From: Phycisphaerae bacterium | GTDB lineage: Bacteria; Planctomycetota; Phycisphaerae; UBA1845; Fen-1342 | Direction: 5' to 3' | Assembly (NCBI GenBank): GCA_050115495.1 | Contig: JASFQK010000017.1 | Span: 1-64,000, forward strand | DNA: 64,000 nucleotides | Made by a program: the position numbers | Shown: positions 44,601 to 50,600 of the stretch, piece by piece | How the letters are laid out: each line of letters opens with the position of its first letter | How positions within the stretch are numbered: the stretch's first letter is position 1

Positions 44601-47600
44601 AGACGCATCGCATCTGGGTCAACGCCTGCACCGAGCGCTACTACACCGCCACCGCGATGGGCCGCGAGTACCTGCGGCAATGCGGCGCACCGGGCGAGCG
44701 CGTGCTCGTCACGGGCATCCCCGTGCGGCCCGGGTTCGAGCAGCCACCCGAACGCGACGCGCTCCGCGCCCGGCTCGGGCTCGATGGCGAGGGGCCGGTG
44801 GTGCTCCTGTTGGCCGGCGGCGTGGGCTACAGCCGCCCGGAGCGCCTGGTCGAAGAGCTGATCCACATGCCGGCCGACGCCCAGATCGCCGTCGTCGCCG
44901 GGAAAAACGAGCGTTTGCAGCGCCGGTGCGAGGATCTCGCCCGCCGGACGCCGCGGCGCGTCGTTGTCAGCGGCTATACAGACCGCGTCTTCGAGTGGAT
45001 GCACGCGGCGGACCTGATGGTGAGCAAGCCCGGCGGGCTGACGACGTCCGAGGCGCTGGTCTGCGGATTGCCGCTCGTGCTGGTCGATCCGATCCCCGGG
45101 CAGGAAACACGTAACGCCGACTACCTGCTCGAACACGGCGCAGCCATCAAGGTGAACGACCCGCGTCTGCTCGGCCACCGCGTGAGCCAGCTCCTGACCA
45201 CGCCGACGCAGCTCGAACGGCGACGGGTGGCCGCCCGTACGCTGGCCCGGCCCGGCGCGGCGGGACGCATCGTGGCCGACGCCCTGTCGCTCCTGCCCGA
45301 CAGCCCCGCCGCCCCTGCGCCGGCGGCCGACCCCGGCCCGCCGTCGACAGCCCGCGTCCCCAGCGTCTAGAATCGACCTGCCGGCTTCTCCCGGCGTGCC
45401 GAACGCCGGCCCGCGCCTACAATCGGGCTATAGCCGAAGCGAGCCGCCCCTGGAGCAACGACCGTGCGTTATCTGGTCGCCATACCCGTTTACAACGAGG
45501 AGCGTTATCTGCCGCGTGTGCTGGCGGCTGTGATGCGCCTCACACGCGACGTCCTGGTCGTCGACGACGGCTCGACGGACGCCACCCCCGCCCTGCTTGC
45601 CGAGTACCCAGCCATTCACCGGCTGCGGCACCTGGAGAACCGCGGCTACGGCCAGAGCCTGATCCACGCGTTCCGCTTCGCCGCCCGCAGCGGTTTCGAC
45701 TGGGTCATCACGATGGACTGCGACGAGCAGCACGAGCCCGCCCAGATCGGCGAGTTCGTGGCTCATATCCGCGACAACCGGGCCGACGTCATCAGCGGCT
45801 CGCGCTACCTGCGTGAATACCCGAACGATGACACCGCCCCGCCCGAACGCCGCCGGATCAACCAGACGGTCAATATCGTCCTCGCCCAGACGCTGGGCCT
45901 GCACCTGACCGACTCGTTTTGCGGGTTCAAGGCCCACCGCGTGGCGGCGATGCAGCGTCTCACGCTCGACGAGCCGGGTTATGCCTTCCCGATGCAATTC
46001 TGGGTCCAGTGTGTCCGGGCCGGCCTGCGTATCCAGGAGATCCCCGTCCGGCGAATCTACCGCGATACGAACCGGGAGTTCGGCGGGACACTGGACGATC
46101 CGACGGCGCGACTGCAACATTACCTGGAAGTGTTGACCCGCGAGCTCCAACGCGAGCCGCTGTTCGTCGTGCCCCACGATACGTGCACAGGATGTCATTG
46201 CCCCTAATCCCCCGGGTCCGCTACGAGAACCTGGTGACTCCGACGGAGCACCTGGGCGTTCTGGTTGAGCCCGAGCCGGTGGCGTGGCGCGCCCAACTGA
46301 CGGCGGGCCCGGCGCGCGATCTGGCGGCGGTGACGATTCTCGGACGGCCGCTGGAGGCGTGGCGGCGAACGCTGCGCGAGCGGTTGGGGCTCAACTCGCC
46401 GGTCGTCGCCGCCGGCCACCAGGCGGAGTTCAGCCACGCCGGCGTGTTCGCCAAGACGATCGCCCTGCACGCGCTGGCTAGCGCGACGGGTGCCGCGGGC
46501 GTCTTCTTCACCGCCGATCACGACCTGCCCAAGGGCGAGCGGCTGATCGTCCCCGAGATCGCCGCCGGTGGGCTACGACAGACCGAGGTGCCGATTCCCG
46601 GGCATGACGCGCAACGGCCGATCGAGCGCCAAGCCGCCGTGCCTCGCGGGCGATGGCTCGATTTCTTCACGCGCGTGGCGTCGGTGTACGAGCATTACGA
46701 CGTGTCGCTGCTGCGGCCGTTCGCCGACGCGTGGCTGGCAGGTGATGAGGCGGAGATCACGTTTCGCGACGGAGCGCGGCGCGGCTGGACGGCCGTCGAG
46801 CAGGCCCTCGACCTGACCGGGTTGCACCACGTGAACCTGTCGGCGCTGTGTGCCACGCCGGAGTTTCGGGCGTTTGCCGCGCATCTCATCCTGCACGCCG
46901 CCCGCTCGGCCCATGCGTACAACGCGGCGCAGACGGCGTATCGCGTGCGGCACCGCGTGCGAAGCCGGAACCGTCCGGTGCCGCCACTGGTCACATCGCC
47001 CGAGCGCACCGAGGTGCCACTCTGGCTCGTGCTGCCGGACGGCCGGCGCGAGCGATTGCAGGTCGTCATGCGCGGCGACCGGGTGATTCTCTGCGCCGGG
47101 GTCGAGCCGGTGGCCGAGATTCGGCGGCTGGATCTCGCTGACCCGGCGGCACTTGAGCAGGCCTGGCCGTTCGAGCGTGATGGCTGGGACGTGCGGCCGC
47201 GGGCGCTCGCTCTGTCGGCGCTGGTCCGCCTGCTACTCGCCGATTTCTACATTCACGGCATCGGCGGGGCGAAATACGACGAGATCACCGAGGAATGGCT
47301 GACCAGCCTGTTCGGCGCGCCGCCGGCGCCGATCGGGTGCGTGACGGCTACGGCGTTTCTGCCGCTGCCGCGCACGGGCGTGCGGTGGGCCGATGTGCTG
47401 GCCGCTCGGCATGCCGCCCGCGACCTCATCTTCAATCCGCAACGCCACCTGCCCGACGTCCCGGCCGGACTGTTACGCCGCCGGAGCGAGTCCGTGCGGC
47501 GATCCGACGAACTGCGGGCGGCCCGGTCGCGTAACCGGCAAGAGCGGCGGCTCATGTTTGAGGCGATTCGGCTGGTCAGTGCCGAGATTCTCTCGACCGA

Positions 47601-50600
47601 TCCGTGGCGGGCGGCGGAGCTGGAGCAGAACGTGCGGACGCTCGAACAGCGGTACAACCTGGACCGCATCGCGTTTGATCGCGAGTACTTCGCCGCGCTG
47701 CACCTCCGCTCGACGCTGCGCGACCTGGTGCAGCGCGTGCGGACGGCGCTCGAACTCGGCTGAGCCGGGCGTCTCAGGGGCGGCCAGCATTGTCTCGATC
47801 GTGATTTCCCCCGTGGGCTGAATAGTGACACTGACGGCGCCCGCATCGTGCGTGTTCAGCACGCGCGGGCGGTCGCCGAGCACCTCGCGGACGACGGCTT
47901 CGAACGCCGGCCGGGGCGTCGCCGACGAAACGATGATCACTTCGGGATCGACCACGGCGAGAAACACGGCCGTTTCTTTGCCGGCGACACTGCCGTGGTG
48001 CGGAGCGATGAGCACGTCGGCACTGAGCCGCACGCGGCCGGCAGCCTCCGCGCTGAGCAACCCCTGTATCGCCGCCTCTTCCACGTCACCCGGCAGCATA
48101 ATCGTCCGCCCGCCGGCGTGGACGCGCAACACCAGGCTGCGATCGTTCGCTGACCACGTTTGCGGGTCGAGGTCGGCCGGCGGCCACAGCACCTCGATTG
48201 GAAGCGGTCCGAGCGTACGCTGCTGGCCGGCGAAGACCTCGACGCGCGGTGGTGTCTGCGGCGGCAACAGACTCGTGAACTTCGCCGTGTCCTTGGCCGC
48301 AGCGGCCTCCGCGAAGTGCGGGCTGTGGCAGAGCTGCTCCGTTGGGACGTTCTTCAGCAACGACGGCACGCCACTGTAGTGGTCGAAGTTCGCGTGCGAG
48401 ATGTACACGTCCTGCAAACGCTGGTAGCCCAGCACGCGCATCGCCCGGACCACGGTCTCGCCCGCGTCGGTGTTGTGGATGCTGCCGGCGTCGCAGACGG
48501 ACGCGCTGCCGTTCGGGGCGGTCACCAGCACCGCGTTACCGTTGCCAACACTGAACACGTGCACGTGGCTCGTACCGAGTGCTGGCTCCACGGGTTCGAA
48601 CGACGGAGCCAGCAGCAGCGCGTACAGCGCCACCGCCGTCAGTCCGCCGAGCCAGCGATAGCGCGCCGTGCCGCCCGTGAACGGCGAGGCGGATTCGGTC
48701 CGCTCCGGACGCCGGCGCAGAAGCCAGGCCAGCGGCAACAGCACGCCATAGGCGGCGAACACGGACCACGCCGGCGGTGGCGTGACTTCGCAGACGGCGC
48801 CCGGCCACTGCTGGAACCACTTCGCCACCGTCAGCAGCCAATCGCTCAGCACGTGCGGGGGCGCCGTCAGCCACGCCGAATCGGTCGAGAGCCAGGAACC
48901 CGACCCTGCCGCCGTCCCCACCGTCCACAGCAGCGATCGCACAAGCATCGTCACGAAACTGAGGCAAATCAACATCGCCGCCGGGATGGTGAGCAGGGTC
49001 GTACCCACAATCCCCCACATCGAGCAACGCCCGAAGTGCAGCAGCACCAGCGGCAGACTGCTGCACCAAGCCACGACGCAAACGATAAACAGCCCGACGA
49101 AGAAGCGGTGTAGCCGATGCAGTATGAATCCGCGGATCGTCTCCGGCTCGCGCGGCGGATCGCCGGCGTCCAGCCCTCGCCGCCAGCTCAGCACCAACCG
49201 GCACACCGGCCCGGCCAGGACGAGCAGGGCCAGTACCTGCACGAACGAGAGCTGAAATCCCGGCCGAAACAGCTCACGCGGGTTGTAGATCAGAATGCAC
49301 ATCGCCGCGAGCGCCAGCCAGTTCACGACACAGAACGGCCGTCGCCCCACGAGCGCCAGCGCCGCGATGACCGCCCCCACCGTCGCCCGCAACACGGGCG
49401 CGTTCGGCTCGGCGATGAGGGCGTACAGCAGGATCACCGGCAGCGTCGCCAACGTCGCGGACCTGCGGCCCACTCTCAGCACCCAGTGTGCGAACAACCA
49501 CACCGCCCCGGCCAGCACGGCGACGTGAAAGCCGCTGACCGCCAGGAAGTGCATCCCCCCAGCCGCCAGGAACGCCTCGTTGACGTCGGCGCCGGCGGCG
49601 CCGCGTTGGCCAAGGACCATCGTGTCCAGCAGACGATCCGCCGCTTCGACATCCAGTTCGGCACCCGGTTCGAGCAACATCGCGCCGGCGGCCAGTCGCA
49701 GGTTTTGGATCGCACGCGTGACACTCCAACCATCGGCGTCGTCTGTCGCCGGCAGCGCGCGGACGTAGGGCGCACCCTCAACGCTCAGGCCGGCGTCGAT
49801 GCCCTGAAGCGTGCTCGTTCGGGCCCAATCCGTTTCGCCGGGATTCCGCGGATCGGTCGGCCGGTGCAGCTTGCCCGTCAACTCGACGCGGTCGCCGACG
49901 TGCAGGCCCAGCCCGACAGCGTCCACGCGAACCCGGACGCGCCCGGTGATCGGCCGCGATGCTTCGCCCATCCGCAACTCCCGCAAGTTCACGACGAAGC
50001 GGGTCGTCGGTGGCGGCGTGAAGGGCAGGAATCCGTTCCGGATTTCGGGCGGAGCGGCGTGCGGCCGGGTAAGGACCTCGCCGACGACGCGGGTCAGAAC
50101 CGGCTCGTCGCCCAGCATGCGCGTTACATGGTTCGGCGAAATGGAGAAGATCGCCTGTTGGCGTGCGAAGCCAACAGCCGCCGCCATCAGACACAGAATC
50201 GGCAACACAACCAGCGGCCGGCGTCGAGCGGCTCCGACAGCGACGAGCACAACCAGACCGGCCGGCGGCACGAGCAGACCCACCCAGCGCCACGGACCCG
50301 CCACCGGACCGAGCGTATCCCCCAGCCACACCCCCACCATGAGCGCCACCGCCGGCCAGAGGAGTGGTGTCGGCCGACCCGGCGTCGGCTGCTCACGCAT
50401 CCGCCTGTACCACGGGCCCGTCCCCGGAACCGATTCTCGCCCTCGCATGTCCGCTATTAGGCCCTAACGCCCCCCGACGCACAAGCCGCCGCCGGACTAC
50501 GGCGCCTCACTCACCCGGAAGAACACCTCCGCGGGCACCAGTTTGCAGGAGACCGGGCGTCCGCCGGCGGTTACCTCCGGCGCCGGCAGCCGGCATACTC

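What a model noticed while it worked through the whole genome (the two positions that open the first line are those of the whole stretch)
46192..47763. An uncalled gene for a highly divergent BshC-fold ligase, coupled to a GT2 glycosyltransferase: candidate for the unknow [...]
A 523-aa ORF missed by the caller (it overlaps the end of the comEC call on the other strand) belongs to an unannotated Phycisphaerae family that folds like BshC, the cysteine-adding enzyme of bacillithiol synthesis, at only 13% identity. It sits behind a GT2 glycosyltransferase rather than bshA, pointing to a variant sugar-cysteine conjugate in a phylum with no known or predicted LMW thiol.
Evidence so far: DNA conserved in 5 of 5 relatives, protein 49-54% identical; 157 homologs at E<=1e-20, the 120 listed all unnamed or 'hypothetical', no Pfam, NCBIfam or PDB sequence hit; AlphaFold model pLDDT 95, top Foldseek hit BshC 4wbd E5e-13 over 522 columns; ESM Atlas nearest named cluster BshC-like (0.84, call 217); GT2 gene adjacent in 5 of 5 close and 2 of 4 distant loci; in 4 of 40 other phylum genomes.
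(Added by a program. Inside this text positions count along the whole contig: contig position 1 is position 1 of the stretch shown here. "Call 12" and the like, gene names such as g00115 and contig names such as C1 are that model's own, and its searches are not shown. The text may have been shortened before it was handed on; [...] marks where a part breaks off. The agent that wrote the report below was given it as the finding of a first reader that could run no searches.)

Follow-up and report, generated by a model that had tools for sequence, protein, structure and literature searches.

The report
Rewired bacillithiol-like pathway in planctomycetes
This unannotated gene looks like the last enzyme of a rewired version of the pathway that makes the bacterial antioxidant bacillithiol, so many planctomycetes, anammox bacteria among them, probably make a related sugar-amino acid compound that has not been identified.

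Summary
The 523-aa gene (46192-47763, +) is real, has no Pfam or NCBIfam hit, and folds like BshC (Z 24.3 over 441 residues; class I LysRS next, Z 19.8). In 201 Planctomycetota genomes the family is in 35. All 35 have the same GT2, 34 have a BshB1-like deacetylase, none has canonical BshC or BshA. 94 others carry bshABC. Four further genomes pair an above-cut-off BshC with this GT2 and lack BshA. One metagenome contig has GT2, BshB1 and this ligase as one operon. So the ligase stands in for BshC and the GT2 for BshA. The product is unknown. Against a plain bacillithiol-type thiol: bacilliredoxin BrxA/B is in 0 of 39 GT2-type genomes versus 20 of 25 canonical ones; two invariant BshC residues seem lost; the GT2 keeps most of the phosphate clamp of polyprenyl-phosphate transferases. 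Best reading: a new cysteinyl-glucosamine thiol without malate (0.55). The scan noted this system before on other DNA (e1-6577546), seen after my own tests.

The parts
46192..47763 (+). Divergent BshC-fold amide ligase, 523 aa (family F). Rossmann core with G75-H76-Q77, H82-x-G84, K88, D109-x-D111, H355-G356-x-G358-G359-x-K-Y362, R497; C-terminal helical hairpin about 399-494
45464..46207 (+). GT2 glycosyltransferase, 247 aa, DPMS/PpgS-like, no transmembrane segment; proposed replacement of BshA. DCDEQH metal motif, R114, R129, N133 at the acceptor site. Overlaps the ligase start by 16 bases
44165..45370 (+). UgtP/MGDG-synthase-like GT28 gene upstream; beside the pair only in close relatives (cluster seen in 16 of 81 loci); probably not part of the pathway
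47473..50448 (-). ComEC/Rec2 ORF, convergent; its last ~97 codons are an antisense shadow of the ligase gene; not part of the system. (The pathway's BshB1-like deacetylase lies outside the window, G000:C39:64490-65599, - strand.)
   Evidence: deacetylase

Best explanation
The protein is the third enzyme of a three-step, bacillithiol-type pathway in which the first enzyme has been replaced. (1) The GT2 transfers GlcNAc from a UDP-sugar to an unknown anionic, probably phosphorylated, small acceptor, with inversion (inferred from GT2/DPMS kinship), instead of BshA's retaining transfer to malate. (2) A distinct BshB1 subtype removes the acetyl group. (3) This BshC-fold enzyme joins an amino acid, most likely cysteine, to the free glucosamine amine. 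The product would be a Cys-GlcN-X thiol with X not malate and probably a beta linkage. Shown: gene, fold, co-occurrence, mutual exclusion, one three-gene operon. Inferred: every chemical step, the donor sugar, the amino acid and the redox role. I put the three-gene pathway at about 0.9 and cysteine with a soluble thiol product at about 0.55.
For: Fold: BshC best of 48,161 chains, Z 24.3, rmsd 6.2, 441 aligned; profile alignment to 17 canonical BshCs collinear over 410 columns, probability 78.9, E 1.6e-5. Profile of 201 genomes (tabulated in 53): bshC+bshA+bshB1 94; none of the five genes 64; F+GT2+bshB1 34 (one with a sub-cut-off GT4 that scores better as TIGR03088); F+GT2 only 1 (86% complete); canonical bshC+GT2+bshB1 without bshA 4; partial 4. 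F and canonical BshC overlap in 0 of 35. Among 99 genomes without canonical BshC, bshB1 is in 34 of 35 with F and 0 of 64 without. GT2 directly upstream in 72 of 81 loci; 6 of the 9 misses end within 410 bases. In 3 of 4 f43 genomes the GT2 abuts canonical BshC; the two f43 BshCs scored pass TIGR03998 (314 and 294 bits, cut-off 266). L227: GT2, BshB1 (204 bits, cut-off 182.5), F ligase abutting on one strand. Features track the GT2, not the ligase type: deacetylase GExTP in 19 of 19 F and 2 of 2 f43 versus 0 of 22 canonical; GHQ in 4 of 4 f43 BshCs versus GQQ in 17 of 17 BshA-linked ones; H76 in 127 of 127 F. YpdA-like reductase at >=262 bits in 3 F and 13 canonical genomes, 0 of the 64. No glutathione synthetase hit in 0 of 35 F genomes.
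Against: No metabolite or enzyme data. BrxA/B (PF06491) is in 20 of 25 canonical genomes but 0 of 35 F, 0 of 4 f43 and 0 of 16 pathway-less genomes. YpdA-like hits are absent from 32 of 35 F genomes, including this one, and the 3 hits are below cut-off. In the profile alignment the invariant Glu of BshC's GPxE and Arg of its PR motif fall on G359 and C383 (low-confidence columns). Class I LysRS is a close second fold (Z 19.8). A canonical-BshC HMM does not detect F members (best E 0.017 of 127); F against f43 BshC gives probability 9. The GT2's best sequence and fold matches use lipid phosphates. The deacetylase is rarely linked: 2 of 24 F-type deacetylase loci have GT2 and a ligase beside them; here it scores 154 bits, under cut-off, and is a long branch. 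Genomes are kin, so the P values overstate; profiles A2 and A3 held 26 and 9 proteins from the sampled genomes besides this one, though A1, without them, found the same 35 plus one weak hit.
Confidence: 0.55

Rival explanations
1. Lipid-linked pathway: the GT2 makes polyprenyl-phospho-GlcNAc or a GlcNAc-phospholipid, the deacetylase frees the amine and the ligase aminoacylates it, giving a membrane-bound Cys- or other aminoacyl-glucosamine.
For: Best GT2 matches are DPMS (Z 23.5; E 7e-21) and ArnC, PpgS among NCBIfam models. R114 and R129 match DPMS Arg117 and Arg131, which bind the acceptor phosphate. No bacilliredoxin.
Against: DPMS Ser135 is Asn in 43 of 43. No transmembrane segment; first interface helix more polar than in 9 DPM-like comparators (mean hydropathy -0.58, f43 -1.13, versus -0.18), second helix no different. 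No flippase or GT-C family recurs among neighbours. Soluble-acceptor GpgS, MpgS and MgS follow closely (Z 20.3, 19.5, 18.7). The same GT2 serves an above-cut-off BshC.
Confidence: 0.15
2. Soluble conjugate with another amino acid (not a thiol), such as a compatible solute or signal.
For: Apparent loss of BshC's invariant Glu and Arg; LysRS1 second fold; no Brx, rare YpdA.
Against: Exact mutual exclusion with BshC and shared BshB1; f43 BshC with the same GT2 keeps the canonical motifs; YpdA-like genes in 3 F genomes, one about 2 kb from bshB1.
Confidence: 0.17
3. The product is bacillithiol itself or its beta anomer: the GT2 uses malate.
For: BshB1 over cut-off in 23 of 35 F genomes; two arginines could bind a dicarboxylate; canonical BshC works with this GT2 in f43.
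Against: Deacetylase loops and the ligase His co-vary with the GT2; Brx absent from 39 of 39; GT2s of this kind invert (PMC5526996) while BshA retains (PMC5790435).
Confidence: 0.09
4. A divergent class I tRNA synthetase or tRNA-modifying paralog unrelated to the sugar genes.
For: Class I synthetases fill ranks 2-37 of the fold search; HxG at the first helix.
Against: LysRS and CysRS over cut-off elsewhere in the genome (the cysS match shows one TAG that I did not examine); missing from 166 of 201 genomes; tied to GT2 and BshB1; BshC aligns over 441 residues, LysRS over 278.
Confidence: 0.02

Closest known systems
BshC (PF10079/PF24850, TIGR03998; B. subtilis 4wbd) and the BshA-BshB1-BshC bacillithiol pathway
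   Same: Length, Rossmann core plus helical hairpin, collinear motifs, partnership with a BshB1-like deacetylase, position last in a glycosyltransferase-deacetylase-ligase series
   Different: 12-13% identity, no HMM hit; GHQ and HxG for GQQ and GPLY; HGxGGxKY for AGPxExAY; first enzyme a GT2, not the GT4 BshA; no BrxA/B
Mycothiol pathway MshA-MshB-MshC (3c8z)
   Same: Same logic; class I synthetase-fold ligase (Z 10.6); a phosphorylated acceptor in step 1 (recalled) may be a parallel
   Different: MshC is a CysRS paralog (recalled), far weaker match; MshA is GT4
Class I lysyl-tRNA synthetase (1irx)
   Same: Catalytic domain fold, Z 19.8, rmsd 3.5 over 278 residues
   Different: Match ends at residue 311 of the 508-residue chain; genome has a class II LysRS
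Polyprenyl-phosphate GT2s (DPMS 5mlz, ArnC, PpgS) for the partner gene
   Same: DxDxQH motif, SGSRY arginine, second arginine of the phosphate site
   Different: Ser135 is Asn; no membrane domain; polar first interface helix; no flippase or GT-C neighbour; all NCBIfam scores far under cut-off

Membership tests
BshC | Score over Pfam PF10079/PF24850 or TIGR03998 cut-off | tested here: not met
   No hit for the query or 60 family members in Pfam
BshC | BshC fold: Rossmann core, insertions, C-terminal coiled coil | tested here: met
   Z 24.3, 441 aligned, chain range 14-531; TM 0.48; Atlas TM 0.65 to a BshC cluster
BshC | Conserved motifs GQQ..K, DHD, GPxExxY, PR, QER | tested here: inconclusive
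   G, Q, K, D, G, Y, R kept at matching places; Glu and Arg apparently replaced; alignment probability only 79
BshC | Co-occurs with BshA | tested here: not met
   0 of 35 genomes over the TIGR03999 cut-off
BshC | Co-occurs with BshB1 | tested here: met
   34 of 35 at E<=1e-35, 23 of 35 over cut-off; operon L227
BshC | Needed for adding cysteine to GlcN-malate in vivo | not testable with these tools
   Defined genetically (PMC5790435 passages)
BshC | Dimer through the coiled coil | not tested
   No complex prediction was run
Bacillithiol redox system | Bacilliredoxin BrxA/B and YpdA present | tested here: not met
   Brx 0 of 35 versus 20 of 25 canonical; YpdA-like 3 of 35, under cut-off; 13 of 102 canonical at the same level
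Polyprenyl-phosphate GT2 (partner gene) | Phosphate clamp Arg117/Arg131/Ser135, amphipathic interface helices, membrane domain or partner | tested here: inconclusive
   Two of three clamp residues kept; polar first helix; no membrane segment
Class I aminoacyl-tRNA synthetase | HIGH and KMSKS motifs, anticodon-binding domain | tested here: inconclusive
   HxG in 121 of 127 at the start of the first helix, equated with HIGH from recall only; no superposition available; structural match covers the catalytic domain only

The most novel reading that the evidence does not exclude
The GT2 uses a phosphorylated acceptor, possibly a lipid, so the trio makes a cysteinyl-glucosaminyl-phospho-X thiol, perhaps membrane-anchored, that works without bacilliredoxins and is shared by Planctomycetia, Phycisphaerae, anammox bacteria and distant AT-rich lineages. 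Because family F keeps an HxG motif where canonical BshC has none, it may activate its amino acid with ATP by itself and give the first in vitro view of BshC-type chemistry, which had not been reconstituted as of PMC5790435 (2018).
Probability: 0.2. Interest if true: 0.9.

Novelty: new variant of a known kind. Interest (0 to 1): 0.7.

Why it matters
Hiras et al. (PMC6282198) named Planctomycetes as a lineage without a documented or predicted low-molecular-weight thiol and asked for genome-guided searches. This gives three concrete genes and a prediction for lineages that lack bshABC and glutathione synthetase, including Ca. Kuenenia (L109) and the isolate Phycisphaerae bacterium RAS1 (P0083). 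It shows a non-orthologous replacement of BshA by a GT2 that recurs with three different ligase types, and it offers a large, unannotated BshC-fold family for the open question of how BshC activates cysteine.

Tried and rejected
Sequence searches of PDB with profiles A1 and A2 gave only coiled-coil noise. RNA evidence: one run held 0.07 of the words; 4 short contigs laid, two on the ligase gene at depth under 3, DNA not excluded; not used. A fourth conserved gene: DUF1844, rhomboid and aminotransferase IV follow the ligase in 31, 30 and 20 of 81 loci, absent here and not recurrent in the distant loci; taken as lineage synteny. The GT28 upstream is in 16 of 81 loci; rejected as a core part. G172's BshA-like hit is a PEP-CTERM-type GT4. 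BshB Arg109 is not diagnostic: it is not kept in canonical Planctomycetota BshB1 either. EgtB: only weak partial hits here. One search used a wrong accession and is irrelevant. Literature: 10 searches listed no paper on this family or a GT2-type bacillithiol pathway; several were loose and the library lacks most subscription journals. The BshC structure paper was not held, so residue roles in BshC are not checked. Taxa of L227 and L246 were not determined. No complex prediction was run.
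Full report
Observation. The ORF is as described: ATG 46192 to TGA 47763 on the + strand, 523 aa. 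It starts inside the last 16 bases of a GT2 gene (45464-46207) and shares 291 bases with the tail of a convergent ComEC ORF. Codon-position GC in the overlap is 0.74/0.48/0.85 in the ligase frame and mirrored in the ComEC frame, and the ComEC tail hits relatives only antisense to the ligase gene, so the ligase is the real gene. It has no Pfam or NCBIfam assignment, nor do 60 family members hit a BshC Pfam model. Relatives are many: 197 among 8000 scored candidates, the 120 listed unnamed or hypothetical, and 2889 clusters at E<=0.001. The exact protein is already in public collections.

Fold. The model is confident (pLDDT 95.6). BshC is the best match by Foldseek (E 3.2e-14, TM 0.48) and among 48,161 chains (Z 24.3, rmsd 6.2, 441 aligned), followed by class I LysRS (Z 19.8, 278 aligned) and other class I synthetases and MshC near Z 11. 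The Atlas gives TM 0.72 and 0.67 to mostly archaeal clusters with a minority PF10079 label and 0.65 to a named BshC cluster. A profile of 127 members aligns collinearly with 17 canonical BshCs over 410 columns, probability 78.9: GQQ to GHQ, the lysine, DHD to DxD, AGPxExAY to HGxGGxKY, QER to RE. BshC's invariant Glu and the Arg of PR fall on G359 and C383; these columns are uncertain. A canonical HMM does not detect the family. H82-x-G84 sits at the start of the first helix, where I recall the HIGH motif of class I synthetases; I could not superpose coordinates.

Range. In an even sample of 201 phylum genomes 35 in 14 families carry it (36 with the close-only profile, the extra one a weak fragment).

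Partners. The GT2 is directly upstream on the same strand in 72 of 81 loci; 6 misses end within 410 bases and 3 are real. These loci favour close relatives; in 20 more diverse loci it is directly upstream in 8 and nearby in 1, but all 35 genomes have the ortholog somewhere at E<=2e-86. I searched the same 201 genomes for PF10079, BshA and BshB1, with E-value limits set before seeing results, and tabulated them: 94 have bshC, bshA and bshB1; 64 have none of the five genes; 34 have F, GT2 and bshB1; 1 has F and GT2 only (86% complete); 4 have canonical bshC, GT2 and bshB1 without bshA; 4 are partial. F and canonical BshC never co-occur (about 18 expected if independent). Kinship inflates the P values, and the A2 and A3 profiles contained proteins from sampled genomes. 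Still, both types occur within this genome's class, and the four f43 genomes are a natural experiment: in three the GT2 abuts BshC, and the two BshCs scored pass the NCBIfam cut-off. This genome has no BshA (best 95.5 bits, cut-off 273.7; 92% complete) and a BshB1-like gene on contig C39 (154 bits, cut-off 182.5).

Operon. A metagenome scan with the deacetylase profile gave 80 loci, 24 of the F subtype; two have GT2 and a ligase beside them. L227 (35% GC) has GT2, BshB1 over cut-off and an F ligase abutting in pathway order. L246 (30% GC) has the same GT2 and deacetylase types with a third, weakly BshC-like ligase (E 6.5e-10). Their taxa are not determined.

Co-variation. Deacetylases from F and f43 genomes carry GExTP (21 of 21) and canonical ones do not (0 of 22); a 100/97 branch separates the canonical set, with one long-branch paralog inside, from the rest (46 rows, a subset of the genomes). 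The ligase histidine follows the GT2: GHQ in 4 of 4 f43 BshCs, GQQ in 17 of 17 BshA-linked ones, H76 in 127 of 127 F, SHQ in L246. This suggests a changed glycoside, not malate as in bacillithiol.

The GT2. It is closest to DPMS and ArnC by sequence and fold, with soluble-acceptor GpgS and MpgS close behind. Of DPMS's phosphate-binding Arg117, Arg131 and Ser135 (PMC5526996, passages) it keeps both arginines and has Asn for Ser. It has no membrane segment, a polar first interface helix and no recurring flippase or GT-C neighbour. An anionic, probably phosphorylated acceptor is likely; soluble is favoured over lipid but not shown.

Is the product a thiol? For: replacement of BshC, the f43 bridge, YpdA-like genes in 3 F genomes and none of the 64 pathway-less ones, one about 2 kb from bshB1, and no glutathione synthetase hit in the 35. 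Against: BrxA/B in 0 of 39 GT2-type genomes versus 20 of 25 canonical (80 of the 201 genomes searched), YpdA missing from 32 of 35 and from this genome, and the altered motifs. I give 0.55 to a soluble Cys-GlcN-X thiol, 0.17 to another amino acid, 0.15 to a lipid-linked product, 0.09 to bacillithiol or its anomer.

Literature. PMC6282198 (passages; supplements searched, no planctomycete names) states that Planctomycetes had no documented or predicted thiol. PMC12719100 (passages and supplement search) lists Engelhardtia mirabilis and Saltatorellus ferox with the canonical pathway, so the phylum-wide claim is out of date. PMC5790435 (passages) says BshC was found by co-occurrence and not reconstituted. 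PMC7278568, PMC4101496, PMC5372718 and PMC12673574 were seen as passages; the last has no mention of thiols. The BshC structure paper was not held. Ten searches listed no description of this family; bioRxiv supplements and most subscription papers were out of reach.

Earlier scan notes. After the profile was done I saw e1-6577546, which reports the same rewiring in planctomycetes, and three notes on Asgard archaea with a GT2 in place of BshA. They are not independent support. They prompted the operon search that found L227 and L246.

Verdict. A real gene for a strongly diverged BshC-fold ligase in a bacillithiol-like pathway with a swapped first enzyme. It works like BshC but fails the family's sequence and BshA tests. 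New variant of a known kind; product unknown and directly testable; interest 0.7.

Noticed in passing
G188:C1:2273338-2275721, G171, G135 (L164-L166), G115 (L167, L168): Family f43 has an NCBI-recognisable BshC next to the GT2, no BshA; such genomes would be misread as incomplete bacillithiol pathways. Two of the four also have a glutathione-synthetase-like hit under cut-off.
   Followed up: yes
L246:189-3406: GT2, BshB1 and a weakly BshC-like 574-aa protein with a cysteine-rich insertion on a 30% GC contig; may be the type reported from Asgard archaea, taxon not determined.
   Followed up: partly
201-genome phylum sample: 94 genomes carry canonical bshABC, far more than the two species listed in print; 64 have neither pathway and only 3 of 16 tested have a glutathione-synthetase-like hit, so their thiol is still unexplained.
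   Followed up: partly
window 47473-47763 (-): The ComEC ORF reads about 97 codons past its homologous end as an antisense shadow of the ligase, which can make a caller drop the real gene.
   Followed up: yes
L053, L056, L059, L061-L063 and others, downstream of the ligase: DUF1844, rhomboid-TPR and aminotransferase class IV genes follow the ligase in 31, 30 and 20 of 81 loci.
   Followed up: partly
L153, L158, L159, L160, L163: A different DPM-like GT2 lies on the opposite strand beside canonical BshC in family f57, which has BshA elsewhere.
   Followed up: no
G000:C22:17504-18955: The cysS match in this genome contains one TAG stop; not examined.
   Followed up: no
window 41142-41459 (+) and 50497-54609 (-): A 105-aa ORF before the dipeptide-epimerase-like gene and a 1370-aa ORF have no significant Pfam hit.
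   Followed up: no
window 38393-39434 (+): Radical SAM and PTPS-family genes side by side, as in queE-queD (label recalled).
   Followed up: no
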